Of a stretch of 64,000 nt of DNA, positions 12,001-62,854 are shown piece by piece. Every line of letters begins with the position of its first letter. Position 1 is the stretch's first letter. Both the position numbers and the translations under genes were made by a program. Where the stretch lies: positions 1,984,001-2,048,000 of the forward strand of contig OY253668.1 of NCBI GenBank assembly GCA_958009085.1, written 5' to 3'. A model generated the notes under the pieces. It was not told where the DNA came from and ran no database searches. It saw nothing but the letters and a program-made list of their open reading frames with translations. This stretch comes from Protoeuglena noctilucae (Eukaryota).

Positions 12001-15000
12001 GGTCGAAGATGCTCTGGAAGACCTCGATGTTGGTGGCGACATACTCTGCCAGGAGAGTGGACCGGCCCGCGACGCGTGTGGCATCGACCATCGCCCGTGA
12101 CCCCAGGACCAGCTTGGTGTAGATGGCAAAGAAGAAGAGGTGGATGGCCACGCCCAGGAGCACGAACAGGGGAAGGCGCTTGCTCATCAGAAGCGCGAAC
12201 ATCGACGCGTTGGACATCTCCAGGAGACGGCGGAGGTGCCTGGGGGCGGTGGGTGGGTGGGGTGGCGAAGGGGTTGTGAGGAGCAATGGAGCGGGGGGTA
12301 GGTGTTTGGGGAGCAAGGGAGAGCGGAAGGGGCTGGCTGAGAGAGGGAGGGCGAGGGTGGCAAAGCACGTTGCCGGAGGGTCGCAGAGAGCGCGTGCTTG
12401 CACAAAGCACGATGCCTCATCCGCTGCCATGATGAAGCGCAGCGCTGAGCATATCGTGAGACTCCAAGATGCCGCGTCTCTCTCACCTCAGTCGCTTGGC
12501 TCGCTTGATGTGGGACGTGATGTTGCCGTGGCCCAGCGTGCCCGTGACGCTGCTGAGGGAGACGCTGATGTTGTCTGCGTCGGGCTCGGACGCCGTGTCC
12601 TGTGGCTGCGGGGAGGCAAAGAGCGGTGGGTGTCGCTGTGCTGGGGCTGGGGTGGCATAGGAGGTGCGGATGGGGCTGGGGTGCTAGGTGCGCTGTGTTA
12701 GTAAAACAGGGGAAGGCACCGGCTGCTAGTCACACGCCACCCCAACACCCCACCCTGCCCCACCCCTCGCCTTCTTAGCCTCATCCGCGCTCGCAGCGAC
12801 CGTCTTGGCGTCCTTCCGCGGCGACTTCGGGACGCTGTCCTGCCTCGCCAGCGCGTCGCCGAGGTCATCCCCGCCCCGCTTGCCCTTGCCAGAAACGCCA
12901 GAAATGGGCGGCTTGCCCTCCGCGGCCATCGCGCCCTTGCCGGGCGCCCGCTCGTCGGCAGCGGCGTACTTGCCGCGGCTGGGCTTCTCTGGCTTCTCCG
13001 CATCGTCGCCGTCGATGTCCTTGTCAAAGGCCTGCGATTGATGGCAAAGGCAGAGCACGGGTGGGTGGGGAAGGCGACACACCACGCATGCTGCGAGAGT
13101 GACTCTCACAACTCGTGCTATGAGAGTACAGTAACTCACCACGCGCGCTGCAAAGGACATCTCACCCCTCATGCCGCAAGAATGCAAGAGTGACTCTCAC
13201 CAGCCATCACGCCACCCAACAGCCACTCACCACACGCGCTGCGAAGTTGACCCCCCGCCTCTGGTCCTTGCCGTCCCCCTTCCCCTCCTCCTCCCTCCTC
13301 ATGCTCTCCTTCTGCACTGTGACCGTCTCCTCTCCTTTGGGGAGGCCGCGGCGACCCTCGTCCAAACTAAACATCTGCGACGATTGAGAAAACAAGTGCG
13401 GTCAAGCATTTCACAATCGATGGTCGGTGATGCAGTCGAAGCCATCCGCTCATAGAGGCCGACACCCCATGGCAGCTGAAGTGCGTCACAACCATAGCGG
13501 CAACCATCCCGTTCACGACAACCATCCCAGCCATAACCCCTCTCTGCAACGCATATACATCGCCTCACCAGTGCCTCCAGCCTCCTGAGGCTCTCGACGG
13601 CGTTGTCTGGCTCCTCGAAGAGACCCCGGACGAGGATCTCTGTGTCCAAGCCACCACCCGCCGCACGCCGAGTGCCACCGCTCACCGCCACTGCAGGCGT
13701 GAAGGGCAGCAGATGAGCCACAATGGATTAAAGAGGAATGGGAGAGGACTGACGAGCACAGACGTGGGACACACGGCGATGGAATGGACGGCAGCGACAG
13801 AGCAGATGACGGGTCAGCCAACTAGCAAACATCACGCACGCTTTGTGCACACGCAACCACCCACAGTGCCCACCCTCGCCCAACCTATGCCCACCCATCA
13901 CTCGCCTTGGAAGTTCGATGTGTCGACGTGGTTCATGCGTGCGGGGATGCGAATTTCGCCCCGCTTGAGACGCGCAGAGAGGTCGTCGACCGCCAGCACC
14001 GCGCTGAGGGGTTTGCCCAAGAGGCCGTTGCGCTCCCACCCAGTCAACACCTCCATATTCGCGTCCACTTGCTTGATGGTGCCGTCTCGGCTGGCCGTCA
14101 CGTGTGCCTGGACCCAATTGGCCGACCATATCTGCACCACGTATCCACCCTTGGCGTCCATATCCGCCTTGTCAGCCGCGCTCACGAAGCCCAGCTTGGC
14201 CAGCTCGGGCATGTCGAGGCGCGCGGCCTTGATGGGCGTGACGGAGAACCGAATGGGCACGTAGTCGGGCACGGACTGGCCCTTCCCGATGCACACGAGT
14301 GACGCCCGCAGGGTCATGGCCTGCCCGGTACTCTTGGCCGCAGACAGCTCGGACAGGGCCTGGGAGATGACCACCTCGGGATCCACGCGGCTGTAGAGCT
14401 GCGCGTTCTGCACCAGCGACTGCAGGACGTCCAGGTAACTGCTCAGCTTCTGCCCCACCATCTCGACCGCGCTCAGCCCAAACACGTCGCCCGCCACATC
14501 CGTCTTGCCGAACCCCACGCCCCCCCGCGCGGCCGCGACCGTGCCGTCCGTGCGCACCACCACGCTCATCTTGATCTGATAGTCCTGCAGCTCCGAGAGG
14601 GACAGGATCCCCCAGGGCGCGCTGTCGGCCGGGAGAGGGGCGCCGTGCACAGTCACGACAAACTGCATCGAGTTGCCGTGGCGTTGGGGCCACCACCGGA
14701 GCTGCACGGGCACGGGGACGTGGTTCTTGCCATCCAAGAAGACGGTGTGGCCCTTGAAGCATGGGACGTGGTCGGGGGGCTGCTCGCCGTGCATGACGGC
14801 GGCGCGCAGGAGCGGGGTGTGGAACTGCGGGGGGTGGAAAGGGGGTGGTGGTGGGGTGAGGAGGTGGACATGAGAGGGATGGGGTGTTAGCAGAGGGGTG
14901 CAGAGAGACAATGGTCTGGTGCTTGGCATGCGCCGACCGACCGCGGTAAATGAACCAGCACACCGCACACTGCACAGCTGAGCATAACAGTCATCACCCC

Positions 15001-18000
15001 ACCATACCTGGGCATAGGGCGTTCGGAGTATCTTGTCCAATGACATGCGCTTGAGCTCCAGCACCTCGTCCTCATACCCAAGCATCTTCTGCAGAGATGG
15101 TATGCGGGGGGCTTATAGTGAAGCGAGGCAGGGGCTGCTGGCAAGGGTTGACGGTTGAGGGTGGCAGGGACTGGTGCCAAGGCAGGGATTGGTGGAATGG
15201 CTTGAGGGTGAGTTGAGGCGGGACTGGTGCCGGGGGCCGGAAGGTGGAGCAGCGGGCAGAGCCGACATGTGAGTTCGCAACTACGCTAGTGTGACTGTGC
15301 ATCATCGTGACTCGCCTGGAGGCACCGGTTGACGTAGAGGAGGTGTCCGTTGACGTCAAACACCATGACCCCCTCCACCTCCCTCTCAGGCGTCATCTCC
15401 ACCTCCAGCAGCTGCCCGTCACCCATGCCGACCTTGCGGGCTGCGAGGGAAAAACACGTGTGATTTAAATGGCGTGCACTCATCCCGATCATTCGCATCG
15501 ACTAACTGATACAACCGGGACAAGGGAATGGCTCATCACATAGCCGCCCCTGCAAGTCATCCCTGCACTCCACCACAGGGCCAGCCACCCCACTGCCACC
15601 CCGCAGCCACACCCCTGCACCAACACCATCCCCGCCCCCTCACCCCGGCAGTGCACGGGAATAATGTCCCGGGAATATTTGTGCCGGAACGCCTCGCTCA
15701 GATCCACCACGGGCTCATCGTCCTCGTCTTTCGCGTCATACTGCCCCGCCACGCCCATCATCTCCACGTCCGTCAGGCCCTCGGGGGTGCTGTCTGCCAT
15801 CGAAAAGAGCTTCTCGTGAGCCTCTTGTAAGAGATCCATCCACCGGTTGCCCGGCTGCCCCACCACCGACATGTCCTTGCCCTGGAAGTCGAGCGTGTTG
15901 TAACCTGGGTGTGATGAAAAAGAGACGAGGGGATGTCAGATTCGCACATGCCGAGAGCTGGGACTGACTGGGTGGGTATCAGTGCTTGGTTTGGTTTGGA
16001 TGCGTGGAGAGGTGCGATCGTGGGCGTCTTGACGGATGCTAGCAAGTCGATGGCTGCTGGCGATGAGCAATGGCTTTCGGCAGAGGGAGAGGTACTAAGC
16101 ACCCAGCAGGACCAGTCACCCACTCTCTCACACGCACCTACATCCCCGATCTCTCTCTCAAGTGACCCACACCAAGTCACCCACTCACCCGTGACGGCAG
16201 TGAACGCCTTGTTCACACATAACACCGCATTGGTCGCATCCACCCACACAACCATCACTCACCCGTGACGGCGGTGAATGCCTTGTTGACGCACAACACC
16301 GAATTGGTCGCATCAACCCACACCAACATGCGCCCCTCGGGTCCCCCCGTCTCATCCTCCTCCAGTGGGTGGATAACACCGATGTAGCTGTTGCCCTCCG
16401 TTCCCTGGTTGAGCTTGGTCACTTTCAGGCTAATGGGGATCACGGTGCGGTCCCGGCGCATCGCAAGCACCTTCGTCGTGTTGCCCACAATGTGGCCCCT
16501 GGGAGGGGGTATGAATGCAGGGGTTGGTCATGCATACAACTTGGGGGTGCGGGGGAGTGGGTCTGTTACAAGCGGGAATGTCAACATCGTTGGTGTGGGA
16601 CGTTGCAAGCGTGGGATACAGCAAGCATGGTAGATAGTAACCACCCAACATAGCGAACACATAACATTGCTGTGTCTCACCTCCCCGTGGCCTTGTAAGC
16701 GCGCAGGTAGGCGTTGTGCTTGGTGCTGAAGGGGGGTGGCATGAGGACGCTGACATTCAAACCCTCGAGCTCCCCCGCACGGTAGTCGAGCATCTGGTTG
16801 AGCACTGCGGGTTGATATATATACAAATTGGGATGTTAACGAGTTATCAACACCATTGGGTTGATAAGAGATGGGGCGGCGTGACCGGGTGGGATGTGAC
16901 GGGCATGGTATTGAGGTGTGGCGGGGGGCACATGGCAGGCACGCAAGGGGAGGTGACCAACATTTACAGGCCTGCTCGCGATGCGCATGCGTGTTATGGC
17001 ATCTTCTCACGTTTGTTGGTCATCTGTATGATGCCCGTCTCTGTGATGCACACGATGCCGTCGTGGCCGTCATCCACGGTCGCGGACAGATCCTCGCCAC
17101 CGTTCTCCACTGCGAATGGGAAGATTGGAACTCAAATGTTCGGCATTACTATATACCAGTCGGCTGCGATGATGCAATCATATTGGCTGTCGTCATGACC
17201 ACCCAGTGGCCTCTCCCTCACCTGCCGCCGCCAGCAGGTGGTCCCTCTTGCGCTCCTCCGCCATGTCCTCGGTCTTATCAGCGAGGTTGAACAGTCGCAG
17301 GGCTTTCCAGGGATTGCAGATGACCTCTTCCACGAACTTGCCATACGACCGGAGCAGCTTGACGTTGGAGGGGTAGCGCTCGAGCATGATGCTGCGAGAG
17401 GGCGTGGGGTGGGGGGAGAGGGGGTGAGCGGAAGTGGGGTGATGGCGGGGGGTGCTGGTGGTGCGTCACGGCGCTAACGTTAGGTTAAATGCTGCTACTC
17501 TGTAACGCTAACCAGTGGTCACGATAAGCGCAGTTAAAACGCTCGCCAGTCGCCACAGCTCCTGCACCCGTGCTCCCCTCACCTCTCATCCACAGCCACA
17601 GCCACACCCACCACACCAGTGCATCTCTCACCGGTACAGCTTCGGCTATACATCCATGCCTCTCACATCCATACCTCCCCACTGCCTTACCTGTACAGCT
17701 TCTGCTCTCACACCCATGCTGCTCTTACACCCATGCCCCCCTCATCTCTCACCAACAGCCACACCCACCGCACCACTGCTTCTCTCACCGGTACAGCTTC
17801 TGCGTGGCCAGCTCCACGATCTGGATCTTCCTCAGCCCCCCCGAGATGGACCGGAAGTTCTTGTCCTTGCGCATCAGCAGCTGCCAGAAATGGTGCGTGA
17901 CCTGGATCGACGCCTGGTGACTCTGCTGCGCCGCGCGGAAGCTCTGCTGGAACTCCATGAAGGACATCAGGTCCATGGCGCCGTCTGCAACGGTGGAAGT

Positions 18001-21000
18001 AGAAGTGTTATTGTATTGTGTGTTATGTGTCACACTCCATGAAGTGTCCTTCATGGACATCAAAACCATGGCGCCGTCTGCAATAGTAAAAATAGATGTG
18101 TTATAGTGTGTCACATGTCACAGTGTCACAGTGCGTGAAGGACATATGGTCCACGGCACCGTCTGCGGGAGTGAGTAGGGGTAAGGGGTGTTATGGGGTG
18201 TCAGGCACGGGTGGAGGAGTGAGGGCGACTCAGTGCATGGTATGAGCCAACCTACTTGCATGACAGGAGAAGCACACCACAATGCATGATATAAAGGACC
18301 TAAGCACGCGCACTTGCTGCAGCAGCCGCCGCTATCACCTCCCCCGCCGTCCCCATCCCCATCCCTCTCCCCGCTCACCCGACCCGTATCCCTGTGTCTG
18401 CACGAAGGCCTTGTGGTCCCTGTCGATCCAGAAGTACATCATGCGAAGGTTGATGTTCATGGGCATCTTGGCAGCGCGAAGAATCTGGGAGAGGGCGCCG
18501 GGGTTGTCGCGGCGCACGCTCCTGGGGAGGAGGAGGGGAGAGGAGAGGGGGTGAGATGGTGTGGCACACGGTGCCCATCGAAGCAGCTCCGATTCATCAA
18601 TGCAGCGCTGCTGTCTGCAGCGCGCATGCCGCGTCTGCAGCGCCGTGCTCCCTGTGTCGGCGCCACGCTCGGTTATAAGCATACCCGAGGCTGACCCTAC
18701 ACGCACGGTCTGCCCAACGACCACGTGTGCCCAGCTCACAACTCGCCTGAGGAAGTTGGCGTGCTGCAGGACCAGCAGCGCATTGTCGGGGAATCGACTC
18801 ATGGCGTACTTGAGCACAGCCTCCGCGGACGCCTGCAGCGACTCGTCGTAATTGCCGAAGCGGTCCTGGATCCTAGCACAGCGGCTGCAGATCTGCGGGG
18901 ATGCGGCGGCGGCGAGGGACGCGTCAAGGAGTCGTGGAGATGCGCTGAAAGAAGCAGCGACTGGAATGTAGACAGGCAGACAGGTGAGCTGGGAGCAAGT
19001 AGCGTGTCGCGATAGCTGCAGAGCAAGAGCTGGGAGCAAGGAGCTAGTCGCGATGGCATGGCCGCGGCTCAGCCCAGCAGGCCAGCACAACAGGCAGTGG
19101 GCAGTGCCTAGCTCCACTCCTCGCCTCTGCTTGGGTCGGGCTCGTGATGGCCCGCCATTTGCCGTCCAGGTCACCCCCGCGCTCCATGCTGGCCAGACGC
19201 ATGCTGGCGTTGCGCGTGGCCGTCTCCCCTCCCATCTTGCTCACGAACTTGCGCCGCTGGTCGGACTGCGGGGGCACCCAAGGGGACAATCACCATGATG
19301 CTAGCTGTGCTGCATCACGCTCACGCTGCTCCTGCCAGTGGGGCAGGCATGCATGCACATGCATGCGACCGTGCAGCATCATGTGAGAACCACCAGGGCG
19401 TCCCAGCACGCTAGCAATGTAGCATGGATGTACATAGATAGATCGCTTTTGTCTCCTCAAAGTCACCTGGATGTTTATGTACAAATGCCCTCGTCTCCTG
19501 AAAGTCACCTGGATGTACATGACGAGGTATCCCAGGACGGCACCCACGACCACCACCGAAGCCCAGAGGATGGGGGCACTGCCGGGAGACAGGCTCTTAG
19601 TGCCAATGGCGATGAGGAGAAGGCCGGTGGCCACCAAGACGGTGTGGATGGCCGCGACTGCGCAGTTCACGTGGCGCCTGGGAGGGGTGGTGGTGGTGGG
19701 GGGACGTGCAGGGGCGTGGGGATGTGCACGGACGGGGCACATGCAGAGGCGAGGCACATGCAGGCGCATGCATGGCACATGCAGGCACAAGCGGGGCCAT
19801 GGTGATGGAATGCTTGATAAAACTCCTCAGTCCAGTCTCACCTGTAGAAGGGCTCCGTGCGCAGCGTGTCATACAGAGCCTTGGACGACAGCACCGCGAC
19901 GAAGATCCCAGCGATGTACGGCTGCTTGCGGAACACGAGGGGCACAACGGCCAGGGCCGAACCCAGGACGGTCCATTTCGTGGCCCAGCGGCTACTGCGG
20001 CGCGGGGAGAGCAACGGGGCTGATGGGCGTGTGGCCACGGCTGGTCTGCGTCGTCACTGGTGAAGGTCGCGTCATCGATGGCTTGTTGCCTTGGCCGGGA
20101 AGCCGTATGCCAACGGTGTGTCCGTGGCCTTCCATGCATTTCTCTCACTTGGGGGTCGCGAGGAGATTTGATGCGAGGATGTTGGGGTCAAAGTCGGCGA
20201 GGCTGTTGGCGAGGGCGAGGGCGATGAGCAGCGGCAGGGTGGCCAGCGCGACGACGGAGAGGACGGTGCCGTGACCTGCGGAGCGACGGCGCAAACGGCG
20301 TCCCGTCCGGCCATGTCTGCGGCGGATCTCTTACGCACGTGCTACCCCAATGCAGCATTGGAGTGAGAGCGCGTGCGGCAACCTATCTACGGCGCAGTCT
20401 GAGGCGGCTATCTGCACGCGTGTTCGCGCAGCGCATCACCTGAGTAACAGAGCTGATCAGGGAACACCTTGTTGTAGGCCTGGCGGTGCTGGATGTGCGC
20501 GTTGATGACGTCGCAGGACACCGCACTGCGGGGGCGGCGCCACCTCCGCGTAAGCGTCGCGATGGAGGCGATGGAGCGCACTTTCTGCTATATCTCAAGC
20601 AAACGCTTACCTGGACGCGAGCGCGACGATCGGCAGGAAGAAGAGCTCGATAACAAGGGCCCTGCGGCGATTGCGTGCTGCCGCGCGGTCACCACGACGC
20701 GGCGACATGGCAGCAACATGCACGGACACGTTATGGTACGCAAGCCGCTGACCTGAGCAGCCCCGCGACGAAGATCACGGGTCCCCATGGCTGCGACTGC
20801 TTGGCGAACGTGTAGCCGATGTAGCAGACGACAGCGGTGAGGAGGCCGACCAGGCCCAGGGCAGCGAAGAGCAGGTAACCGAACGTACTGCGGAGGCGAG
20901 CAAGGTGGCGGAAATTGATCGTGCAGCCGCGAGGGAGCGCGACAAGAAGCAATTGCATAGGCTTCAGGGCTCCTCACGAGTAGCCGATCCTCTGCAGGAC

Positions 21001-21918: not shown

Positions 21919-22013
21919 TGCCCCCCAAATCCATCTCGCCCGCCTCAGGACTCCGTTGCCACTTCTCCAGCTCTGCATACGACTGCTGTGACTAAATTGC
22001 GTTCGAGGAAACG

Positions 22014-44110: not shown

Positions 44111-47100
44111 TCACTCCGCCCCTCCCTCAGCCCACCCCGCCAACGTCCCCCCCAATGCCGCCGACCCTTGCCTTGACCCCACCCCACCCTCTCCCTCCAC
44201 CCCACCCCCCTTCCCCTCCCCCACCTCCCCATCCCTCGTCCCGCGAATATGAGGCGACTCCACATCATCCCCACCCTCGTTCCCCTCATTCCCCAGTCCC
44301 AAAGGCACATCGACCGAGCTGCTACCGACAGATGGCGACAGCGTGAGTGGCGCACGACCGGACACCCCATCCCCATCCACCACCCTATCATCCCTGTTCT
44401 CCTCATCCCGACCATCCCTGCTCTCCAATTCGGCGCCAAAGCCCGCCCCCTCAGCCTCACGCAAACTGTACTCGCCCCTGCCGCCCTCAGACATCGAGCC
44501 AGACCCCACCGACCCAGCTGCAGGGGCCAGCTCTCGGAAACACCCACCCTCGCTGTGCGCAGTGACAGCGGCGGATGCGGGGATGGATGTCCTATGAGTA
44601 AGGCCAGGGTCACTGCTCAGGTCCCTTTCGGGGTGATGCTGAGGGCCGCCATTGCTTGGGAGTGCGGTGGGGGTGGGGGCGGGGGCGGGGGTGGTGGCGT
44701 TATGGGTAGAGGCGGCATTGGTGGATTCCAGAGTGGCTAGGCGTGCCTGCAGTGCGCGTATCTGCCTGCGCAGGTCCTCCACCGTTGCCTCGGTGGCGCC
44801 GGAGTGGACGCTGGGGGGGGGGGGGGGGAGGGGGTGAGGGGTGAGTGGGTGCATGTGGGGTGAGTGGGTGCATGTGGGGTGAGTGGGTGGGGGCAGTGAG
44901 GGTGGGGTGGGGAGAGGGATGGTGAGGGATGGTGTGTAGTGCGTGGCAGGTGTCCGTGGCGCAGTGCGATGGGTGACGAGGCCATGTCTTGCAATGACCG
45001 CGTCTGTCCATCTCTTTATGCACAACAACCACTCACCGCCCCTTCAGGTCCTCCGTGCGCTTGTTGATGACCAGCCCCGCTGATCGGCTCACGCTCCGCG
45101 CCACCGTCAGCATCATGGACGTCTTCTCACGCTGGGGGGGGGCATTAGAGATGGAAAAGGATTGAATCTTATATGTGTTGATTGCACCGCAGTGGCATTG
45201 AACAAACCACAGCTTGGAGTGTTGCTAGGGGTGTTGCCAACCCCCATGTCACACCACCCGTCACCCCCACCCCTTGCATCCCCCACACCACCACACATAT
45301 CCCCTCACCTCCAGCACCTCACTGGCGATCAATAAACACCCCCGCATCATCCATGCACCCACCACCCATCCCCTCACCTCCAGCACCTCACTGGCGATCC
45401 TCTCCACCTCCCCGACCGACACGCCCCTCACGTGACGCCCCGCACCCCTGCGCCCATTCCCACCCACACGCCCCTGCCCCGTCTGCCCGTTCTTGCCATT
45501 ATCCCCAGCATCCTCGCCCATCAACGCACTCTCCACCGCCCTCTCTGCGATTTCCTGCACCTGCCCCGCAAAGCCAGCTGCTCGCTCCCCCGCCGCCGCT
45601 GCCGCTAGCAGCTCCATCTCTCCACGAAGGACGCGCTCTAGGTCGGAGAAACGCGACTCCTGATGGGGGAGGAGGGAAAGAGAGTGATGGTGAGGGAGTG
45701 GGGTGGGAGGGGTGGGTGGGGGGATGCGGTTTGTAGATGCGTGGGGGGTGCGGGGTTGCTTGTGTTCCCGCTTGCAAACGTATCCAATATGCGACTCATT
45801 TGTGTGACATGCGACATGCCGCCCAATCCGTTTTCAAATCCATGCGACCCCACTCCCACCATCCCCATCCATCACCCCCACTCCCCCGCTTCACCTGTTC
45901 CCTCACGAATTCCGCCCTCATTCGTTGGAACATGTCGTGCACGTCTGCCTTGTTGAGGCACCCAACGCCCCTGGCTGAGCCCTCCACGGCCACGCTGGGG
46001 GAGAGACGAGGGAGGGGGGGGGGGGGGGGGTGTAGATGATGAGAGAGGGGGATTAATGGGGGTGTGGATGAGAGAGGGTTGAAGAGAGCATGCAGTCACA
46101 CGGCCCTGCTAGCTGTCCATCTCCCATCTCCCATCCATCTCTCCTCACCTGGCCTGGCTGTCCATCTCTTTCCGCACCACATGCCGCACGTCCTCCTTCC
46201 ACGCATCCGTGTCCCTCTCCGCACGAGTGGCACCCTGAAGACAGGAGAAACAAGTGACAAACAGTCAGGCAAACACCATGTGATTGCATCTCAAGCACCA
46301 CCGCATCCGTGCATGAGGCTACATGAAGCCACAGCCAATGAATCCCAGATACCCGGTCGCTTGGCCTGCCTGGTCGCATTGCCTGGTGACCTGCTCTGCT
46401 CCTTCCCCATCTTTCCCTATCTCCCCCTCACTCCTCACCTGCGTCGCCCACTCCATCTCCACTCCCCCACTCCCCCCGACACACCTGCGTCGCCCACTCC
46501 ATCTTCTGCTCCAAGGTCTCCTCGAATGTCTCCCGGTCCTGGCGCAAATACTCGGCCACCAGCCACTCCACCTGCTCTCGGGTCATCAGGTCCCCGGGGC
46601 CCTCCGCAGCGGCGCCGGCGCCCGCGCTCGATACATTCGCGATCGCTTGCTCGACGCTGCCGCTCGGGGCGGGCGAGTCGGGGTCGGACGGGGCCAGCTT
46701 AATCGACACCTGGCTGGGCTCGGAGGCCATCGACACGGAGGGCATCGGGACGCCGCCCGGACCGCCTTGGGAGGACGATCGCTGCGTCTGATTCGAGCCA
46801 AGCGCACCTGCGGGCCGGCGGGGGGCCCCGGTCGCGGCCCGCGGAGAGGTGTCATGTCGCCACCGTGCTGCCCCGTTGGCGCCGCGCGCGGGGCCGGCCG
46901 TCCCCGAAAACGCAGAGATTGCGTGACCCGAGAAAAGACAAGGTCAGAGCCGACGCGAGCCGAGGCGCGGCGCACCTTCCGCATCGTTGCGATGGGTTGG
47001 GGCCGCCCCGTTTGCCTCCGCCGCGTCCCGCTGCGCGGACTGCCTGCGGGAGGAGAACGCCATCGCCGTGTGAATCAAACCTTGCCCGATGACGGAGCCA

Positions 47101-47541
47101 GGAAGACGTCTGGTGGGGGCGCGGCCGGCCAAGACGCGGCCAAGACCCGCAACACCAGGGTGGTTCCTCTCACTCGGCAACTCGCTGCGCCAGGTCCTGG
47201 ACCCGCTTCGTCAGCTGATCCAGCTCCATGACTGGCGCCGGCGCGTGCGAATGCTTGAGCTCAGCGCGCAGGCTCGCGAGCTCGCGCCCCTGCTCCGCGA
47301 CCTTCTGCTGGAGCTCGCCCAGCGAGGGAGCGGCCGAGCCGTGGTGGGCGATGACATCGTGGTCGAAATCTCGGTGACCGCCGCCGTCTTTTCCGCCAAA
47401 GCACCTCGCCAGCAAGCCCTGTGCGCGAAAACAGCTCCTCGCTTTGCTTTCGCCCCGCTCCCCGAGACCCCGCCGCACGCACCTGGTCCTTACAGGCCTA
47501 AGCTTTACCTTGCGGGAGCCACCGGCAGCCGAAGGGGCCAT
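44111..47541 (-). CDS. Hypothetical coiled-coil protein; multi-exon
   Basis: In-frame GT-AG-joined exons encode LGELQQKVAEQGRELASLRAELK, MTREQVEWLVAEYLRQDRETFEETLEQKMEW and VEDLRRQIRALQARLATLES. I recognise no family, and both ends are uncertain. Confidence 0.6.
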
Positions 47542-47805
47542 GGCGAGCCGGCGCAGGCCAGGGGAGGTCCTTTCACCTTGATGTGACTGGTCGAATGCGA
47601 CGACGACGCGGGTTATCGACAAGCAGCGCCACGCGGTCGTGTTCTTCGCAGTCTTTCGATGATCTGAGCCCGGCGAGGGGAGCGGCGGGCGTGCCAGCGG
47701 CGCGAAATCGTTGGTTTCAAGCGTAGCGTTCTGCGCCAGCGGCACCAATCATGCTCGCGCGGCGCCGGACATCGCATGGCATTCCTCAAAAGCCATCCGC
47801 TAGCG

Positions 47806-50800
47806 TCACGCGGCGGGGAAGAACATTTTGGTGGCGATGCGGGTGAGGAAGGAGAGGGGCCAGGAGGCGGCGGCGATGGCGATGTTGATGCCCCATTCGG
47901 TCTTGCTGCGGGGGCGGGAGGAGATGATTGCGTCGCGGGGCGGTTGGCGGGTGACATAGGGCGGGAGACACGTGAGGGTGCGTCGCATGGCATGGCCACG
48001 CATGACCCATGACGATCGCCCATATGCATGCACCCCAATGCATGGCCCATGAATGCATGGCCCATATGCATGGCCCATCCCAAGACTGCCTGTCCCCTCC
48101 CATCGCAACTGCGAACTCACTTGAGTGGCGTGATGACGAAGAAGGTCCCGACGGGCGTGAGCATGAAGATGAGCTGCAGCCCCGTGGTGACGATCATGAC
48201 GCCCAGGAAGATGTGGTTGGTGAAGATGCCGTCAAAGACGTTGATCTCGTCGTCAATCTTGCGCGCGTTCACCTCGTTGAAGAGCTGCAGGAAGATGAAG
48301 GTGTTGAAGACCATCGTGTTGACGTGGGACTCCTGTGCGGTCTGCCACTCCGTGAACACCAGCTCCGTCATCTGACGGTTGTGCGCGTAGTTGCCGCCGG
48401 GAAGAGCACCGTCGGGCAGGCGCAGGCACCCGGAGGGGTGCACGGGCCACCGGTAGGAGCGGCCGGTGTACTCGCGGTCAATCAGCAGCGCGCTCTTGAG
48501 CTCCCCCCGCGAGTAGGAGGCGGCGGTGAGGTAAGAGGAGAGGGTCTGGTCCTGCAGCACGCTCGACGTCACGCGGTCGTCCAGCTGCGGAGGGGTGAGG
48601 GGTTGAGGGAGTGGGTGAGGGGGTTGGGGGGGTGTCAGATGATGGAGCGACGGGGATTTGTGACGGAGAGAGGGTGAGTTGCCGACAGGCAGATGGTCGC
48701 AGCCACCGTTGCTCATGCATCGACGCAGCGCACCCCCCCACACACAGCACTCTGCCATCACACACACTTGCAGTGACCACCACCCCCGCACCCCCACTAC
48801 CCCCCCACCCCATCGCCCCCTCACCTGGCTGGCGGTGAGGGTGCAGTCCTTGGCCCTGTAGTAGTCGTTGATCTTGGGGGGCACAAAGATCAAAAGCATG
48901 AGGGCCACGAACTGGTAGATGCCCTGGATGAAGATGTGCTTCCACATCTTTCGGCTGATCAGCGCGCTCTTGCCGTAGGGCTTGCGGTTGAGCAGCTCCT
49001 CGGTGGGCAGCTCGGTGGCCAGCGCGAGCGCCGCCATCGAGTCCATGACCAGGTTCACCCACAGCAGCTGGATGACGTTGAGGGGCGTGCCCTTCTGGGC
49101 GATGGCGGCGGAGAAGGCGATGAGCAGCGCCACGCAGTTGATGGTGAGCTGGAACTGGAGGAACTTGCGGATGGCGTCGAAGATGTTGCGGCCCCACATG
49201 ACGGCCTTGACGATCGAGTTGAAGTTGTCGTCGGTGATGACGATGTCCGAAGCCGCCTTGGCCACCATCGTCCCCGCGATGCCCATCGCCAGCCCCACCG
49301 ACGCCTCCTTCAGAGCGGGCGCGTCGTTCGTCCCGTCGCCCGTCACGGCCACGATGTCCCCGCGCCTCTCCATCAGGAACTTGACCAGGCGTTTCTTGTC
49401 TTTGGGTTTCGATCGCGCCAGCACCTGCAGCCGGTCGATAACCTTGTCCAGCTCCTCGTCGGGCATCTCCCGGAACTCGTCCCCGTCCATCACCACCCCG
49501 TCTCCAAACAGGATCCCGCACTCGCGAGCGATGTACGTGGCCGTCAGCTGGTTGTCCCCCGTCACCATGCGCACCGTGATGCCCGCGCGGCGGCACTGGG
49601 CCACGGCGTGGGGGACCTCCTGGGGGGATGGGAGAGGGGGGGGAGGGGGGTTGGGGGTGTGGGGTGGAGGTAGCTGTATGGGGTGTGGGTGTGCAAGCGG
49701 TTGCGTGCAAGCAGGTGCGCGCCACCCAAGTCATGAACTGCGCTTGCAGAACATACAGCCCCCGCCCCGTGCAACCCCCCCCTCTGCTCGCCTTCCTGAC
49801 CGGGTCCTTGATCCCCACCACCGCGCACAGCACGGGGTCCCTCAGGGGCGGCTCCTCAAAGTCGTCGTCTTTCAGCGTCCCCGGCAGGTCGCAATAGGTC
49901 ATGGCCAGGCAGCGCAGGCCGCGGGACGCCATCTCCTTCGCCACCTCCGTCGCTTCCTTCACCAGATCGCCCGACATCTGGGAGGGGGTGGGGGGTGGGT
50001 GAGTGGGTCGGTGTCACACACACACACACACACACACACCGAGCTTTCGACTGAGTCAGCACAGCACAAGTCATGTCACCACTGCCGCACTCGCGCCACT
50101 GCTGGCCCTTACCAACCAATTTACCCAGCCTCACACCACATTACACTGCACCGTCACACTGCACCCCCTCTTCCGCACCGCAACCCCCACCGTCGCATCG
50201 CACACCACCCCCGACCCACCCACCCCCCCACCTAAGCCTCCAACTCACCGCCACGACCTTCCCCTCCAGCGTGGTGGCGTGCGTGCACTCCTCGATGACC
50301 CAGTCCCACGCGCCCTTGGTGAACATGCGGTAGCCCTGCCCGTGCCGGAACACGGCGTGCGACATCTTGGTCGCCGAGCTGAAGATGTACTTGCGGTGCA
50401 ATGGGTGTTTCTGGCGCATCTGCCGGTAGTCGACTCCCCACTGGTCGGCCAGCAGCAGGAAGGCCTGCTCGGTCGCGTTGCCCCCCGCAAACACGGGCTT
50501 CTTCGTCACTTCGTCAATGGTCTTGAAGCACTCGGAGTTGAGCGTGGCGTTTAAGTAGATGAGCTCCGACTGGTCCTTGCGCAGGGCGTCCATGCGGGGG
50601 GTCTGCTTGTAGTGCTTGCCAAAGAAGTAGCCCTGGGGGGGGAGGGGGGGGGGGGGGGGGGGGGGGTGTGGGTGGGTGAGGGTCGGGGTGGCAGTGGGGG
50701 TGGCAGTCGTTCATCTATGTCACTTCTTATCGTCATAACATCCAATCGTATTCATCCTCATCCACCACCACCAGCTCTCACCTCCACGATGGTCATCTGG

Positions 50801-53800
50801 TTCTCTGTCAGCGTCTCCCTCTAATCATCATTTATCATTCACATCCACCACTCATCTCACCTCGACAATCGTCATCTGGTTCTCCGTCAGCGTCCCCGTC
50901 TTGTCGGAGCAGATGGCCATGGCGCCGCCCATGGTCTCGCAGGACGCCAGCACGCGCACGAAGATCTTGTCGGTGAGCATCTTGCGCATCGAGTACGCGA
51001 GCGCGATCGTCACCGCCTGCGGGGGAGGAGAGGGGATTGGGTGAGGGGTGGGGAGCGTGGGGCTGGCAGGGATGGGTTTGGACTGGCACGCTGTTGAGAG
51101 ATCGGTCGGTCGGTCGTGTTTCCAACAATACACAGGCAGCCTCAATGTGCACACAATGCAGTCACGCTGCGGGCCTGATCAGTGCACCTGCTCCACCCCT
51201 GCTACCTCACCCCCACCCCATACCCCTAACCACCCTCACCAGGGGCAGCCCCTCGGGCACGGCCACGACGACGATGGTGACGGCGAAGAGGAAGTAGTTG
51301 AGGACGTCGGTGCCGTGCTGGGCGTAGGCGCCATTGCGGTACAGCACCAGCCACTCAATCGTCAGCACCACGAAGCACACCGCGCCCACCGCCATGCCCA
51401 GCTTGCCGATCGCCGCGGCAAGGTCCGCCAGCTTGATCTGGAGCTCTGCGGGGGAAGGGGAGAGGCGACGGGGGTGATGTTATTGCAAGCGCGTGTATGT
51501 GCGACCGTCTGCCGCCATTCACCCAGCAATCTCCACCCCCCGTTCGCTTCCCTCGCTTGCTCGAACTCAAAGCGACACCGTTGTTCACCCCAGTCCCACC
51601 CTCATGCGCACATGTACCACCCTTTCACATCCCCCACCCAACCCACCCCACCCCCCCACCCCACCCCCCCACAACCCCACCCCACCCCCACCCTCTCACC
51701 CGTGTCCGGCGCCTCCCCCATGACATCCTCGAGGGTCTTGCCGTAGAAGGACTGCTCCCCCACAGCCGTCACCACCATAGTCCCCGACCCCTCGACAATG
51801 TACGACCCCGAAATGAGGTAGGGCTCCTGCTCCCCCTTCATGATGGGCTCGGACTCTCCGGTGACCGACGACTCGTTGGCCTTCAGTTTGAATCCCTGGA
51901 CGAAGAAGCCGTCCGCCACCACGGCGTTGCCCGCCTCGAGCTTGAGCACATCCCCGACGACCACGTCCACGTTCTTGATCACCTCCTCCTTCCCTGCAGT
52001 TGCGTGGGAGAGAGGAAGAGGGTGGGGATAAGAGGGGCGAGGCACAGAAGGCATGGCATGAGGTGCACCCTTGGGAGGGCATCAAGAATAACGCCATGGG
52101 CGGGGTGGGGTGGGTGGGGTTGGCATTTCGTAGCAATCATACACAATCATGCACAGCTAGTGTATGAAGAGCCTTCCTTTGTCACCCCAGCCCCTCCAGC
52201 CACGCCCCGTCCCGCCCACCACCCCTCTATCACACACCCACCACCTCTCACCTCCCCGCATGACCGTCACGTCGAACACCTCCCGCTCCGAGTTGAGCTT
52301 CCGGAACTGCTTGTCCTTCGAGTAGTCGTTCCCCGCGCCCACCGTCGACACCACCAGCACCGCCACCCAGATCGCCACCCCCTCCACCCAGCCCCCCTGC
52401 GCCCGCTCCTCCGGGATCGTCACCCCCAGCACCGTCGACACCAGCGCCGCCAGGCACAGCAGGACCAGCATCGGGTCCTGCAACACCTCGAACAGCAGGC
52501 CGAAGAACGTCTTGGGAGGCACCTCCTTGTACCGATTGGGGCCGAAGTCCTCGCGGCGTATCCCCACCGAATCCATCGACAGACCCACCGATAGGTCCTC
52601 CACCCCCAGCTTCTGGCCCAGGCCCGCGACGCCTCCCAGCTCCTGCAAACGAGCGAGCGGGGGCGCTGGGCGCGAGCAACGCCCCCCCTCCTGTTTCTCC
52701 CAATTGGCGTACCGACCCTCGGCGCACCGACCACTGGCCCGGCCCCGATTCGGCGCGGAAGCCCCACCTTGAGGCGCTGGTGCATCTTCTGCTTCATGTT
52801 AGCCGCCTCCGCCTGCTCCTCCTGACTCAGCGGCTGCGCCGCGGCCCCGCCGTTCTCCTCGCCCTCGCCCCCCATGTGGGCCTTCTTGTGGCCCGTGCCC
52901 CCGGCCTTGACGGCGATCTGCGCACGCGGAGGCGGCAGAGCGATGCGTCAGGCGAGCGCCGGAGCGCGGCGGGGTCCGTCGCGGGGAGGGACGGCCGCGC
53001 GGGGCCATTTTGGGCGGCCGGGGGAGGCGCAGGCACCCGCGCGGGCGCTGGGAGGAGCGCGAGGCGGCTGCGGGACATCGCGCGCGCCAAGAGGAAACCG
53101 GAAGCCGCGCATCACTCCGAGAACGCGGCGGGAGCGACGCGGCGGGGCGCGGGGGCACGAGGTCAACGCGGCGAGCTGAGCCCGGCGAGGTCAGCGGAGC
53201 CAGGTCGTTTCCGGCCATGAGGGATCCGCGATAGCAGCCTCGCTTGGTATGAAACCGGGAGGAAACGCCACCCTCCGGTTTCGAGCCCGCCAGGCGCCGG
53301 GGTGGGGGCCCCAGTGCTCGGCACATGTTTGGACGCGGGCAGCGCGCGAACAGTGGCGGGAAGGGCAGAGAAGGCAGCGCCTGCTCACTCAAACGCCGAC
53401 AACAAAGGGAGAGGCGGCGGCCATGGCCTGCGAGGGACCATCGCGAGCCCCGGGCGAGTCGGCCCTGAAAGGGCCGGGACCAGACCCGCCCGGGGATCTC
53501 TGGACCCCGTAGTGGGCGCGACGGATGTAATATAACGGATTTCGCCGGGACAAAGGGTCTCCCAGGGCCTGCCGAGCCCGGAAGAACGCCCCCCCGACCA
53601 TCTCCCCGGCAACGCCGGCCCTGGCCGCCATGCCGAGCGCGGAACGCGATCAAAGGCAATGACAGCAGCTTCGAAACGCGCGCCGGCCCCGCGACGGCCA
53701 AGCATGCGGACATGTCACCCGAACTGCGCCCACCAGTCCCGAGCCATCACTCACGTCGTTCAGCTCATCGAGCTCCTCCCGCGTAATGCCGTAATGGCCC

Positions 53801-57944: not shown

Positions 57945-60900
57945 TTAGTGCCCTGCCCCACCTTGGCTTCCTTCATTCCGAGGACCTTGAGGAGGAAGGC
58001 GTACTCGAGGGCAGTCTCGCGGAGCTTGTCGAACCGGCCACTCTTGCTGCGAGCAGGACGGGGTTGTGGCGTGCAAACACTATGCCTCTACCTCAGTCTT
58101 ACGACTGACTACTGACTGCTACAGTATTACAAACTGTTACACTGCTACAATCGCCCGTGTTGTACCTCAGCCCATGCTATCAGAGAGCCTTCCCTGTCGC
58201 TGTGTCGCTGTCTCTGGTCTCACTGACTGTCAGTCACCTGAAGTGCCCCGCCCCCATGTCCACCTTCATCAGCAGCAGGTTGTCCCCCTGCTTGGCGGCC
58301 CTCAGCTTGGCGCAGAGCTTGGCGGGCTCCCAGTACGCCACGCGGGGGTCCCAGAGACCGGCCGTGATGAGGATGTGGGGGTAGGCCTGGGGAGTGACTG
58401 CGGGAGAGGGGTGGGGGGATGAGGATGTGATGGGTGACGAGGGTGTGGGGGTAGACCTGGGGAGTGACTGCGATGGGATGGGTGGGGGGATGAGGATGTG
58501 GGGGTAGAGGTGAATATGGGGCTGCATCTCCCTCACACTGTTGTCCACAGGCGAGTGAGTCTTGATCAACCAACACCACCCCTCATGTCCCATCTCCCAA
58601 CTCACCATTATCCACCGGCGAGTAGCTCTTCATCAGTTGGTAGTACTCCTCGTCCTTTAAGGGGTTGCCCCACTCGTCCCATTCGATCTCCGTAAGTGGA
58701 ATACTGGGATCCATCATGGTCGTCAGCACGTCCACGAATGGCACGCCCATGATCACAGCACGAAACAGGTCGGGGCGCATGTTGACGGTGGCACCCATGG
58801 TCAGCCCCCCAGCCGAGCGGCCGCTGATGCAGAGGGTGGAGGGGGAGGTGAGGCCGGAGGAGACGAGGTGCTCGGCGCAGGCGATCTGGGGAGGGAAGGG
58901 GGGATGTAATAGAGATGGGACGTGGTGATGGGTGGGGGTGCGACCGGGGCGCAGTGTGATGGCAGACAGCAAGGTGAGATGTGCGGTTTCACTCAATCAC
59001 TCTCATCCATTCCCTCACCAGGTCCGTGAACGTGTTGGTCTTCTTTTTGAACTTCCCGTCCTCATACCACCGCCTCCCCATCTCCCCACCGCCCCTCACG
59101 TGCGCGATGCCAAATGACACCCCCCGATCCAGCAGCGACAGCAGATTCGACTGGAAGTAGGCGTCGTTGGGGATCTCGTAAGCGCCATATGCGTCCAGCA
59201 GCATCGGGGCTGGCTGGGGCGCGTCTTTGCGACGGACGATGGAGATGGGGACGCGCGTGTTATCGGGGGCCGTGGCCCAGAGGCGAGAGGTCTCGTAGTG
59301 AGAGGAGTCGAAAGGGCCCCTGGGGGTGGGGGGATGTAGGGGAGTGGTGGGGGCTTGTGGGGGTGTAGGGGTAAGACAGGTGGGAGAGGTGGTGAGGGTG
59401 GTGGTGGGTTGCAAGTGGGGTGCAAGTGGGGAAAAGGGGGATGTGGAGAGTGTGTGGGTGTGAGGAAATGCGTGGGTAAGAGAGGTGGTCGCTTCAACAA
59501 ACATCATGCTCATTTGCGACCACTCACTTGACCGGCGTGACCTTCTTGACCACCTGCCTCATGCTGCCCATGTCGAGATCAATGGCAGAGGCGGGCGTGG
59601 TGAGGGACGTGTAGGCCAGCCGCAGCACGGGGCTGTCCCAGTCGCCCTTGGCCCCCGTCGTGAGCTCATAGGATGGTTCTCGAAATTCGGCGCGTCGGCC
59701 CTGGTGCAGGGACCGGACGGGCTGGCCGGGGGGCGGGAGGTCGAACACGGTGGCGGACTGGGGGGGGGGGGGGGGGGGGGGTTGGGGGGAGGTGGTGGGG
59801 GTGAGGGGGGGGTGCGAGAGTGTGAGAGGGAGAGAGGTGGTGAGGGTGGTGGTGAGGGGGAGTGCGATAGTGACGGTGGGAGAGGAGAGACGGGTGTGAA
59901 TTGTGTCCCCGAGCAGTGCCCTCATTTACAGCCCACTCCATGCTCCCATGCGCATGGCTGTCGATGCTTAGCCACAGATGCTATCACTGCCCCTCCCTCA
60001 CCTGCAGCCCGTCGATGCGTTCCATGGCCACCATGTGCGCCTTGGCCACCACCACCTCCTCCAGCTTCACATCCGCGCGGTGGGGCAGCAGCACAGTCGT
60101 GGATGTCGGGTCACTCAGGGGGGCCACCAGCAGCTCCGAGTTGAACTGAGGTCGACAGGTGGCAAGGGGGAATGAGATGTGCAGTATGCGGTGAATTCAG
60201 TGTTGAAGTGTTGAGTAAATGCATGGCGTAGATCCGCACCCACACTGCTACCCCCACCCACACCCATACCCCCACCCACACCCCCACTGCTACCCCCACC
60301 CCCACCCACATCCATACCCACACTGCTACCTACACTGCTACCCCCACTCACACACCCATCCAACACCCCCACCCCCACTAACACCCCCCCCTCCCCACCC
60401 CCTCACCCTCTCGTCATCCCGAATAGTGATGAAGAGGTCCTGGTCGCGGAACGCCACCCCATACTCCACCCCGTACTTCCTGGGCAGCACCGTTCGGAAC
60501 TCCCCCGTGGGATTGTCTGCTTTTAGTATCCTCTCCTCGCTCGTCACGGCTGAGCCCGTGTGGATGACGACGTGGGAGCCGCACCAGGAGCGACTCACGC
60601 CCACGTAGAACTGGCCGTCCGTCTCGTGGTACACGCACACGTCCTGGAGAGAGTGGATGGAGAGAGATTGAGACTAGCGAAAGGAAGGTGCAATGGGCGT
60701 GCACGGCCAGTCTCTGGTGCAGCTACCACCTACCATCTATCGTCATCACTGTGCGTCGCCCTCACCCACACACTATCAAGCGCAACTCCCCCCCCCCAGT
60801 CCCCCTCCCCTCGCCTGTTCCGGTTCCGTCCCCACCACGTGCCTCCAGACCTTCTCCGGCCGGTCGAGCTTGTCCTTGGTGACGTAGAACAGCGTGCGGT

Positions 60901-62854
60901 TGTCAGACGCCCACGCCAGCGACCGCCCCTCCGTGCCCTCGATGGGACGCGCCAGCACCTGCCGATTGGTTGCCAGGTCCTTCACGTGCAAGGCGTATCT
61001 CTCGTTGCCCACCGTGTCGACCGCGTATGCCAGCAGGCGGTGGTCGGGGCTCACTACCGCGCGGCCCACCATGAAGAAGGAGTGGCCGCGGCTCTCCTGA
61101 GAGAGAGGAGGGAGGGGGCGGGTGGTGTTATTGGTACTGGGAATGAAAAATCAAGGCTCTCATGGGGGAGAGAGAGAGAGGGAGTGGGTGGATGGGTATC
61201 GCGGCTCTCCTGAGAGAGAGGGAGGGGGTGAGGGGGTGAGTGAGTGGTAATGGTGGTGAGAACGAACGACAACAGCTCATTTGGGGGGGGGGTGAGAGAG
61301 GGGTTGGGTGGTAATGTTGGTGAGAAGGAGTGGCCGCGGCTGTCCTGAGAGAAAAAGGGGAGTGCGTGGGTGTTGTTCAGAAGAATAGTATCACCCATAA
61401 TCTTATCTAAATACCACTAACGACTCCAATAATGCATCCCCATCCCTCGCCTCACTTCAGCCCATCACCCCATCACCCATCTCCATCTCTTGCCTTGTTC
61501 TCGTCCAGCATGACTTGCTCATCCATGCTCTCATCCATCACGTCATCCACCGACGGACAGCGGTGGATCTGGGACGCGGGGACCTTGCGGCGGCAGTGGC
61601 TGCGGTACTGGAGGCCTGAGAGTGATGAGGTGGGTGAGATGAGGAGATGAGGGAAGGGAAGGGTGATAGGGGAGTGAGAGAGAGTGGGGATGAGAGGGGC
61701 AGTTGCTGCGGTACTGGAGGCCTGCGAGGGTGGGTGATGTGGGTGACATGGGGGGTGTGAGTGAGTGGGGATGAGATAAAGTGGTTGGGTGCACACGATT
61801 AACGCCAACATAGTGTTGATAGAGAGAGAGACCCCAGCAGAGCATCGTTGCCATGCATCCTTGCATCGTTGCATCATGGTCCACACCCATGCTCGCTCGC
61901 CTTCGTAGGTGCGCGAGTAGTAGAGGTACTGACCCTTGCGCACCGGCGCAGAGATGTCGGCTTCCTGAGAGGGGCAGGCGTGGGGGGTGGCAGTCGCACG
62001 TTGCAGCTGGCATGCCTGCCAACACCATGCTGCGCTGATATCAGAGACAGCCCCACACGTGCCTGCTTGCCTGCTCGCCACCACCGTGCTGTGATAGTTA
62101 TCAAAGACAGTCCACACACGCATGCCATGCCACTGTCCAACCCCGCCCATCTGCTCACCTGCAGCCGCCCCCTCATCTCCTGAAACAGCGACTCTTGCAG
62201 GTCCACGGTGTCCGCCATCATCGCCTTGGTGTAGGCATTCTGGGGGCCAAGCGGGGAGAGAGTGGGGCATCAGGACACCGCAGCACGTCGACGGTACAAA
62301 GGATAGCTAAAGGAGAGCATGCTGTGTCGTGCTCCAGCACTTGAGACCATCGCCCCATCGGCAACACCCATCCCATACCTCTGCATCCAGGTACTGGATG
62401 ACGTCCGGCCGCTTGCGCTCGTCGTCCCTGCATAAGAGCAAAGCGAGACTGGTTACACAGCATGCGCCACACGCCTCTCCACCACCACCGCACAAGCTGC
62501 GACGACAGCTGCGGCGCACAAAGCGACTTAAACAAGCACCAGATGATCTCTCCTCGACTGCACAGCCATCCGCACAGTCACCTTAGCCAGTAATACTCGT
62601 CAATGCGCTCGTCCCCCGTCAGCTCAGACTTGAGGACGTGGGGGCGGCGATCAGCGACGGGTGCGGGGACCATGGCGGCACGCGCGCGCTCCACCTCCGC
62701 ATCCGATGCGCCCGATGCAACCTGGGCGAGGGAAAGATAAGGAGACGCGGGTCCGGCAAGCTGCTCGCGCTGTCATTAAGCAAACAAAGCTGCAGCAACC
62801 CACCAGCGTGACGAGGGCGCGCTTCTCCGCGTCCCGGACGCCTGGGCGCGGCAT
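57945..62854 (-). CDS. Oligopeptidase B (protease II, family S9A); multi-exon
   Basis: [36 protein letters not shown], catalytic Ser motif [18 protein letters not shown] (Asp) and MGAGHF (His). The start is uncertain: ATG 62854 or 62673. Confidence 0.93.
60238..60352. repeat. Degenerate intronic minisatellite (CACTGCTACCCCCACCC-like units)
   Basis: Four copies of cactgctacc separated by cccaca/cccata tracts in an oligopeptidase B intron. Confidence 0.7.

What the first reader, a model, noticed from the sequence alone, without database searches (positions are those of the whole stretch)
13080..61725. Window-wide pattern: introns hold copies of the adjacent exon end plus splice site, differing mostly at synonymous positions
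Seen directly: at 15 or more introns in six genes, the last or first 15-70 nt of an exon, with its splice site, reappears 40-270 nt away inside the intron. I aligned six donor-side copies codon by codon (39178-39223, 50782-50814, 36635-36670, 38761-38781, 16189-16255, 13140-13154) and found 24 synonymous versus 2 non-synonymous codon differences. A neutral intronic copy should gain mostly amino-acid-changing differences. The copies have no obvious acceptor and reading through the first donor is blocked, so ordinary mutually exclusive splicing does not explain them. Inference: the copies are or were under coding constraint. Possible causes are frequent conversion or pop-out recombination into the exon, non-canonical splicing, or capture from a diverged haplotype. 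I know of no named system for this. Caveat: I chose the alignment ends by eye, which can inflate the synonymous fraction.
Basis: partly seen in the sequence, partly recalled or inferred. Interest (0 to 1): 0.9.

Follow-up and report, generated by a model that had tools for sequence, protein, structure and literature searches.

The report
Exon-end copies inside neighbouring introns
Many introns of this marine green-alga-like genome carry a small nearby duplicate of the adjoining exon edge and its splice site, most likely harmless leftovers of local duplication, yet the donor-side copies differ from their exons at silent codon positions more often than simple decay predicts.

Summary
The structure is real. 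The window has 60 local direct repeats against 2-5 in shuffles, and 18 pairs span an exon-intron junction (14 donor-side, 4 acceptor-side). In the stretch laid on reads, 5 of 6 such pairs lie inside single DNA contigs of two runs from different studies, so tandem haplotype mis-assembly is excluded there. The one gene with RNA contigs (Ca-ATPase) splices from the exon-proximal donor and omits the copy.

With fixed rules over all pairs the counts are 29 synonymous to 11 non-synonymous on the donor side and 1:8 on the acceptor side. Neutral-copy simulations expect 23-34% synonymous. The donor-side excess holds (0 of 1000-5000 simulations reach it). It is strongest in two pairs, XPB 9:0 and PAS 6:2.

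Where it could be measured, amino-acid-changing differences occur at about the intronic rate, while silent sites are 2-5 times too diverged. Constraint on the copy is therefore not the best reading.

Most likely these are silent junction-spanning duplications, a known kind, plus unexplained extra synonymous change at exon 3' ends. No acceptor, introner family or copy-bearing mRNA was found.

The parts
39283..39341 (-). XPB/ERCC3-like gene: exon end (39297-39341, 15 codons [15 protein letters not shown], plus G at 39296) and first 13 nt of the intron. This is the exon copy of the strongest pair.
   Evidence: Bridged by DNA contigs X1 record 1 and X5 record 14. The relative L001 has an intron at the same position.
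39165..39223 (-). Intronic copy 118 nt downstream. It encodes the same 15 amino acids, with 9 synonymous and 0 non-synonymous codon differences, an intact GTGAGA donor, and GC3 0.60.
   Evidence: (phase 0/1/9). The intron-derived parts of the 118-nt unit still align (z 4.6; 54 matches, 12 mismatches, 8 gap events).
16256..16329 (-). PAS-domain gene: exon end (22 codons MLVWVDATNSVLCVNKAFTAVT, plus G) and GTGAGTG. First unit of an exact 74-nt tandem.
   Evidence: Not covered by the read lay-out.
16182..16255 (-). Second 74-nt unit, lying in the intron: 6 synonymous and 2 conservative non-synonymous codon differences. It starts with an in-frame ATG.
50855..50901 (-). Ca-ATPase exon end (…[13 protein letters not shown]) plus donor. 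This donor is the one used in the mRNA contigs.
   Evidence: RNA contigs X9 record 22 and X11 record 9 leave exactly 159 nt between the neighbouring exons. The joined frame is open.
50776..50822 (-). Intronic copy 79 nt downstream: 4 synonymous and 2 non-synonymous differences, the latter at its far edge. Absent from the mRNA contigs.
   Evidence: DNA contigs X1 record 6 and X5 record 17 bridge it.
36738..36786 (-). XPB exon end [12 protein letters not shown] plus donor (exon copy).
   Evidence: Bridged by X1 record 1 and X5 record 13.
36622..36670 (-). Intronic copy 116 nt downstream: 2 synonymous, 0 non-synonymous.
38825..38851 (-). XPB exon end VLQRMSK plus GCGAGT (exon copy).
38755..38781 (-). 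Intronic copy 70 nt downstream: 1 synonymous difference.
   Evidence: Bridged by X1 record 1 and X5 record 14.
13128..13246 (-). PAS-gene exon end FAARV plus donor (13219-13246) and its intronic copy (13128-13155): 2 synonymous differences. A third, more decayed copy lies further downstream.
30848..30960 (+). Exon end YAIMDTSID plus donor (30848-30881) and intronic copy (30927-30960): 0 synonymous, 1 non-synonymous, plus 1 split-codon change.
45299..45399 (-). Exon end IASEVLE plus donor (45368-45399) and an identical 32-nt copy (45299-45330). Spacing is 69 nt, in frame, with no stop before the copy.
   Evidence: DNA contigs end at this exact repeat, so it is not bridged.
17598..17803 (-). Exon end QKLY plus a long intron start (17755-17803), with two downstream copies (about 17690 and 17598-17646).
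58540..58636 (-). Oligopeptidase gene: exon end [10 protein letters not shown] (58607-58636) and an older intronic copy [10 protein letters not shown] (58540-58569): 4 synonymous, 3 non-synonymous.
58364..58472 (-). Acceptor-side pair: real acceptor plus exon start (58364-58402) and an upstream intronic copy (58434-58472): 0 synonymous, 3 non-synonymous.
17954..18107 (-). Acceptor-side pair (with a third copy near 18130-18166): exon start GAMDLMSFM against GAMVLMSMK: 1 synonymous, 3 non-synonymous.
61075..61377 (-). Acceptor-side pair: exon start ESRGHSF (61075-61129) and a copy 248 nt upstream (61323-61377): 0 synonymous, 1 non-synonymous.
61592..61728 (-). Acceptor-side pair: exon start (61592-61622) and a copy (61698-61728): 0 synonymous, 1 non-synonymous.
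3637..3715 (+). Short donor-side pair at 3637/3697 (0:1). Further short donor-side pairs lie at 19451/19493 (0:0), 31549/31644 (1:1, donor lost in the copy) and 46436/46482 (0:0).

Best explanation
Introns in this genome grow by frequent small local (mostly tandem) duplications of 20-250 nt. Duplications inside exons are removed by selection. Those inside introns, or spanning a splice junction, survive because the spliceosome keeps using the exon-proximal site (first donor, last acceptor). The second copy of 'exon edge plus splice site' is then a silent, non-coding passenger that decays.

The donor-side synonymous skew is real. It comes mainly from too much synonymous change between the exon end and its copy, most probably on the exon side at exon 3' ends. 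It does not come from protein-level protection of the intronic copy.

Shown: the copies, their excess over chance, their presence in independent DNA contigs, use of the first donor in the Ca-ATPase, and neutral behaviour of the acceptor-side copies.
Inferred: the duplication-and-filter origin, and that the extra silent change sits on the exon side. Its cause is unknown. Candidates are selection on donor choice after the duplication, or the regional G-skew that reaches into exon ends.
For: - Local repeats: 60 against 2-5 in shuffles. Most are purely intronic, and 17-18 span junctions. That is roughly the share a position-blind duplication process filtered by selection would leave.
- No dispersed intron family was found; similarity between introns is only G-rich low complexity.
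- DNA contigs of X1 and X5 run collinearly through 5 of 6 pairs in 34.5-53 kb.
- The Ca-ATPase RNA contigs of two metatranscriptome runs use the first donor. Pseudo-donors GT[GA]AG lie downstream of the real donor in 3 of 9 RNA-supported introns.
- Acceptor-side copies: 1 synonymous to 8 non-synonymous, consistent with free decay.
- Against the intron-derived part of the same duplication unit (XPB 0.18, ATPase 0.15 substitutions per site), amino-acid-changing differences are 0 and 2, against about 3.0 and 2.1 expected. Silent sites are 2.4-4 times too diverged.
- The XPB copy has GC3 0.60, against 0.80-1.00 in every exon segment scored.
- No protein-only-conserved older copies were found beyond the control distribution.
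- The distant relative L001 has the same intron but no copy.
- Third-position G rises from 0.41 at exon starts to 0.51 at exon ends, so the intron's compositional pressure reaches silent sites of exon 3' ends.
- A known analogue is the human F7 intron-7 minisatellite, whose first unit spans the exon-intron boundary and whose downstream pseudo-donors stay silent (PMC1557585, abstract read).
Against: - The XPB pair (9:0, no indel in 45 nt, including an AGG/CGA arginine switch) is hard to obtain from free decay of the copy (0 of 5000 and 0 of 2000 simulations). If instead all changes fell on the exon side, the ancestral exon would have held six codons that are almost unused today.
- With strong codon bias, standard theory predicts slower synonymous turnover than in introns, not faster (my own reasoning, not computed from data).
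- Intronic pairs show G and C to be the most stable bases, so composition does not explain third-position changes.
- I have no explanation for the donor-versus-acceptor asymmetry (Fisher p about 0.001).
- RNA evidence covers one gene only, and contigs hide rare isoforms.
- Exon frames outside the ATPase rest on a codon-usage score and on reading by eye.
Confidence: 0.5

Rival explanations
1. One reading: some donor-side copies are, or recently were, under amino-acid-level constraint. They might be translated in an unannotated isoform, or exchange with the exon by conversion or pop-out recombination.
For: - XPB copy 9:0, PAS copy 6:2, donor side overall 29:11 against 23-34% synonymous expected.
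- 12 of 13 HSP-defined donor-side copies keep a GT donor.
- The PAS copy begins with an in-frame ATG.
- The XPB and ATPase copies would be in-frame cassettes of 42 and 39 nt if the AG in front of them were used (read from the sequence).
Against: - The AGs in front of the copies sit in purine-rich contexts (GAG| and ...GATTAG|), unlike the real acceptors.
- The ATPase mRNA contigs omit the copy.
- The XPB copy is full of codons this genome avoids.
- Pooled amino-acid-changing divergence is about neutral.
- No deeper protein-conserved copies were found, and the relative L001 has no copy.
- Conversion-mediated selection needs conversion faster than 1/Ne. The observed silent divergence needs conversion slower than mutation. 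The two DNA sources differ at only 1 base in 18.5 kb, which argues against a huge effective diversity (inference).
Confidence: 0.12
2. The silent differences predate the present arrangement. Either the exon side was overwritten by short-tract gene conversion from a diverged allele, lineage or paralogue (pairing is possible only in exons), or the copy arose by unequal exchange between diverged homologues. The copy would then be a fossil of another functional version.
For: - This would give purely silent differences and silent divergence above that of the flanking intron, as seen in XPB and the ATPase.
- In the ATPase pair the differences swap one preferred codon for another (ACG/ACC, GTC/GTG, ATT/ATC), as between two working genes.
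Against: - The XPB copy's rare codons do not look like any working gene of this genome.
- Its intron-derived part is homologous to the spacer, so it is an in-place tandem duplicate.
- Pairs within one gene have very different silent divergence (9/15, 2/12, 1/7 codons).
- No asymmetry between donor and acceptor sides would be expected.
- The whole genome is not held, so a donor copy could not be sought.
Confidence: 0.12
3. Assembly artefact: two haplotypes or strains stitched in tandem.
For: - The PAS 74-nt tandem and all pairs outside 34500-53000 were not checked against reads.
- The window has a 200-N scaffold gap at 7218-7417.
- The 45299/45368 pair is not bridged by any listed contig.
Against: - X1 record 1 (7.8 kb) and X5 records 13, 14, 16 and 17 run through the 36622, 38755, 39165, 46436 and 50776 pairs with 0-1 differences.
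- Depth is even, about 10-16 in X5.
- The unbridged pair is an exact 32-nt repeat, at which a 31-mer assembly must break.
Confidence: 0.03
4. Chance and choice of ends: a few short alignments happen to be silent-rich.
For: - Two pairs carry much of the signal.
- The 10 weakest donor-side pairs alone give 6:4 (p = 0.11).
Against: - With fixed ends and all pairs, 0 of 1000-5000 simulations reach the donor-side value under three spectra. Under the G-rich-zone spectrum, 0 of 1000 reach the 14:9 left after dropping the two strongest pairs.
- An annotation-free best-of-six-frames permutation also singles out 39165 (p <= 0.0005) and 16182 (p = 0.0075) among the 25 pairs tested.
Confidence: 0.08

Closest known systems
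Human F7 intron-7 37-bp minisatellite spanning the exon 7/intron 7 boundary (PMC1557585; abstract read)
   Same: A tandem repeat whose first unit holds the exon end and the authentic donor. Downstream units carry identical, potentially functional pseudo-donors that stay silent, and the most upstream donor is used.
   Different: Here it is not one locus. About 18 junctions in 64 kb are involved, mostly as two copies, often with a spacer, and on acceptor sides too. Copies are up to about 20% diverged, with a silent-site excess that is not mentioned in that abstract (the only part I read).
Intron gain or sliding by tandem duplication of coding sequence with a proto-splice site (Rogers model; Drosophila cases in PMC2891723, passages read; also listed in searches: PMC3265369, PMC4974935)
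   Same: Small tandem duplications in genes are tolerated when splicing removes the extra copy, so duplication reshapes exon-intron structure.
   Different: In that model the new intron runs from the GT of copy 1 to the AG of copy 2. Here an existing intron is simply lengthened, and the copy keeps its own donor 40-270 nt inside the intron.
Introner elements of marine algae (PMC9860276; seen in a search listing, details recalled)
   Same: A marine alga with many introns and repeated sequence in them.
   Different: No dispersed family, terminal repeats or short target-site duplications were found. The repeats are copies of the neighbouring exon edge.
Tandem exon duplication giving mutually exclusive exons (recalled)
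   Same: A nearby duplicate of coding sequence that keeps the reading frame and differs at silent sites.
   Different: Only the exon edge is copied, without a usable acceptor, and the one mRNA examined does not contain it.

Membership tests
Junction-spanning local/tandem duplication with silent pseudo-splice sites (F7 IVS7 type) | A direct repeat in the same orientation that contains the exon edge plus the splice site, with the second copy inside the adjoining intron | tested here: met
   18 pairs. 60 local repeats against 2-5 in shuffles.
Junction-spanning local/tandem duplication with silent pseudo-splice sites (F7 IVS7 type) | The exon-proximal (authentic) site is used and the copy is absent from mRNA | tested here: met
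   Met for the Ca-ATPase only. RNA contigs of X9 and X11 leave 159 nt between the flanking exons.
Junction-spanning local/tandem duplication with silent pseudo-splice sites (F7 IVS7 type) | Copies evolve as non-coding sequence | tested here: inconclusive
   Acceptor side 1:8, and pooled amino-acid-changing divergence is about neutral. The donor side shows a silent excess, 29:11.
Introner / transposon-derived introns | A dispersed family of similar introns with element ends and short target-site duplications | tested here: not met
   12 introns compared with the window gave only low-complexity G-rich matches.
Tandem exon duplication / mutually exclusive exons | A whole exon with its own acceptor and donor duplicated, and isoforms carrying one or the other | tested here: not met
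   Only 8-67 nt of the exon edge is copied. No pyrimidine-rich CAG acceptor lies before the copies. The ATPase mRNA contigs lack the copy.
Intron creation by AGGT tandem duplication (Rogers model) | The intron consists of the 3' part of copy 1 plus the 5' part of copy 2, so the exon-end copy abuts the acceptor | tested here: not met
   Copies lie 42-157 nt from the real donor, are followed by their own donor, and more intron follows.
Tandem haplotype mis-assembly | The junction between the two copies is absent from reads or independent assemblies | tested here: not met
   5 of 6 pairs in 34500-53000 are bridged by contigs of X1 and X5. Pairs elsewhere were not tested.

The most novel reading that the evidence does not exclude
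A subset of donor-side intronic copies of exon ends is kept at the amino-acid level while its third codon positions drift to intron composition. The XPB copy shows this most clearly: 15 of 15 residues kept, 10 base changes, no indel, GC3 0.60. That would mean these 'spare exon ends' are read as codons by some route not yet described, such as unconventional splicing, an internal start, or regular exchange with the exon. A second reading not excluded: after such a duplication, competition between the two donors drives rapid synonymous recoding of the real exon end.
Probability: 0.12. Interest if true: 0.85.

Novelty: new member of a known kind. Interest (0 to 1): 0.45.

Why it matters
If the ordinary reading holds, this window shows introns lengthening by junction-spanning micro-duplications at unusual density, about 18 junctions in 64 kb. 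It also offers dated 'fossils' of exon ends that could be used to measure how silent sites in exons evolve relative to introns in a genome with extreme codon bias (GC3 about 0.93).

The donor-side silent excess and the donor-versus-acceptor asymmetry are not predicted by simple decay. If they hold genome-wide, they point either to selection on synonymous sites linked to 5' splice-site choice or to hidden use of the copies. Both can be tested with data that already exist for this organism: culture DNA runs and marine metatranscriptomes.

Tried and rejected
- Whole-genome census: no genome is held for this window, so everything rests on 64 kb.
- Earlier scan notes: none for this genome, its relatives or these words.
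- Related loci in metagenome contigs: 1 locus (L001, 62% amino-acid identity, GC 72%). It is too distant to polarise silent changes. At the nine differing XPB codons it matches the copy at 4 and the exon at 1, which is not significant.
- Protein search with the open frame through the XPB copy: only the window's own ORF came back.
- Introner hypothesis: rejected.
- RNA structure around the XPB copy: z = -1.1, nothing special.
- Antisense coding as the source of the 3-periodicity: the long plus-strand ORF over both copies reads different peptides (by eye).
- Alternative splicing that would swap or insert the copy: no GT/GC donor and AG acceptor combination keeps the frame, except in-frame cassettes of 42 nt (XPB) and 39 nt (ATPase) behind poor acceptors (by eye). 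The ATPase cassette is absent from the mRNA contigs.
- Base composition or mutation spectrum as the cause of third-position changes: intronic pairs show G/C more stable than A/T, and no transition bias (62 transitions to 106 transversions). Spectrum-aware simulations lower the expected synonymous fraction.
- Avoidance of in-frame spacing: 3 of 13 spacings are multiples of 3, so no signal.
- A six-frame tblastn self-search was swamped by low-complexity matches.
- The lay-out table listed only 15 of 77 joints, so rare isoforms in XPB could not be looked for. Parts without RNA cover are not evidence.
- Three literature searches listed no paper whose title or abstract start describes intronic exon-end copies with a synonymous bias. 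That covers only the held open-access library and those terms.

Full report
What the window is.

The window is 64 kb with about 63% G+C and one 200-N gap at 7218-7417. It is densely packed with intron-rich genes. A codon-usage score trained on an RNA-supported gene coding segments covering 25.2 kb.

Codon bias is extreme: third positions are 93% G+C in the training set and 0.76-1.00 in every scored segment. The best named relatives of a Ca-ATPase exon are green algae at 64-66% identity (Pedinophyceae sp., Chlorella variabilis). No whole genome is held.

Genes recognised by reading the translations, with names resting on my own knowledge of the motifs:
- an XPB/ERCC3-like helicase (about 34.8-40.1 kb, minus strand);
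- a PMCA-type Ca-ATPase (47.7-52.9 kb, minus strand);
- an oligopeptidase-B-like gene (57.9-62.3 kb, minus strand);
- PAS-domain genes (12.7-17 kb minus strand; 24.1-27.4 kb plus strand).

Noticed in passing
window, all scored exons (e.g. 47705-52900): Extreme codon bias. Third positions are 44% G, 49% C, 3% A and 4% T in the training set, and every scored coding segment has GC3 of 0.76-1.00. Introns are about 64% G+C.
   Followed up: partly
ATPase introns 47906-52766 and others: Introns are polar. The 5' 40% is G-rich and C-poor (G 0.38-0.66), and the 3' 40% is mostly C-rich and G-poor. The two halves can pair (fold of 38960-39345). The extended donor motif GTGAGAGATGG occurs 16 times against 2.1 expected. 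Third-position G in exons rises from 0.41 at exon starts to 0.51 at exon ends.
   Followed up: partly
about 32000-38000: A low-GC island (0.50-0.58, against about 0.63 elsewhere). The XPB introns there hold AT-rich micro- and minisatellites (e.g. 34861-34929 with a 20-nt period; 35724-35797), while the exons keep GC3 >= 0.82.
   Followed up: no
45299-45399 and 19451-19516: Duplicated donors spaced by 69 and 42 nt, in frame, with no stop between them. Use of the second donor would insert 23 or 14 residues, so these are possible alternative 5' splice sites.
   Followed up: no
45356 (run X5, loose ends): Two metagenome contigs match the window from 45356 rightwards but carry other sequence to the left. 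The break lies between the two copies of the 45299/45368 pair. This could be a repeat elsewhere or a structural variant in the wild population.
   Followed up: no
38826-38831, and L001:560-800: The XPB intron after ...VLQRMSK appears to start with GCGAGT (a GC donor). It is absent in the related metagenome contig L001, which reads straight through, so this intron differs in presence between relatives.
   Followed up: partly
7218-7417: A run of 200 N (scaffold gap) inside a region of long GC-rich open frames with unclear gene structure.
   Followed up: no
1361-2671 (+), 2683-2737, 7539-7594: A glycine/alanine/FG-rich repetitive open frame resembling a nucleoporin, with internal 174-nt repeats (2145/2319), and 27-nt tandem repeats at 2683 and 7539.
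   Followed up: no
36968-37584, 44372-44988 and 51159-51775 (depth table): Contig word depth jumps to hundreds or thousands in both DNA runs over short simple repeats (e.g. the CACT-type repeat near 36961-37019, and G-runs near 44813 and 46030). These are high-copy low-complexity sequences.
   Followed up: no
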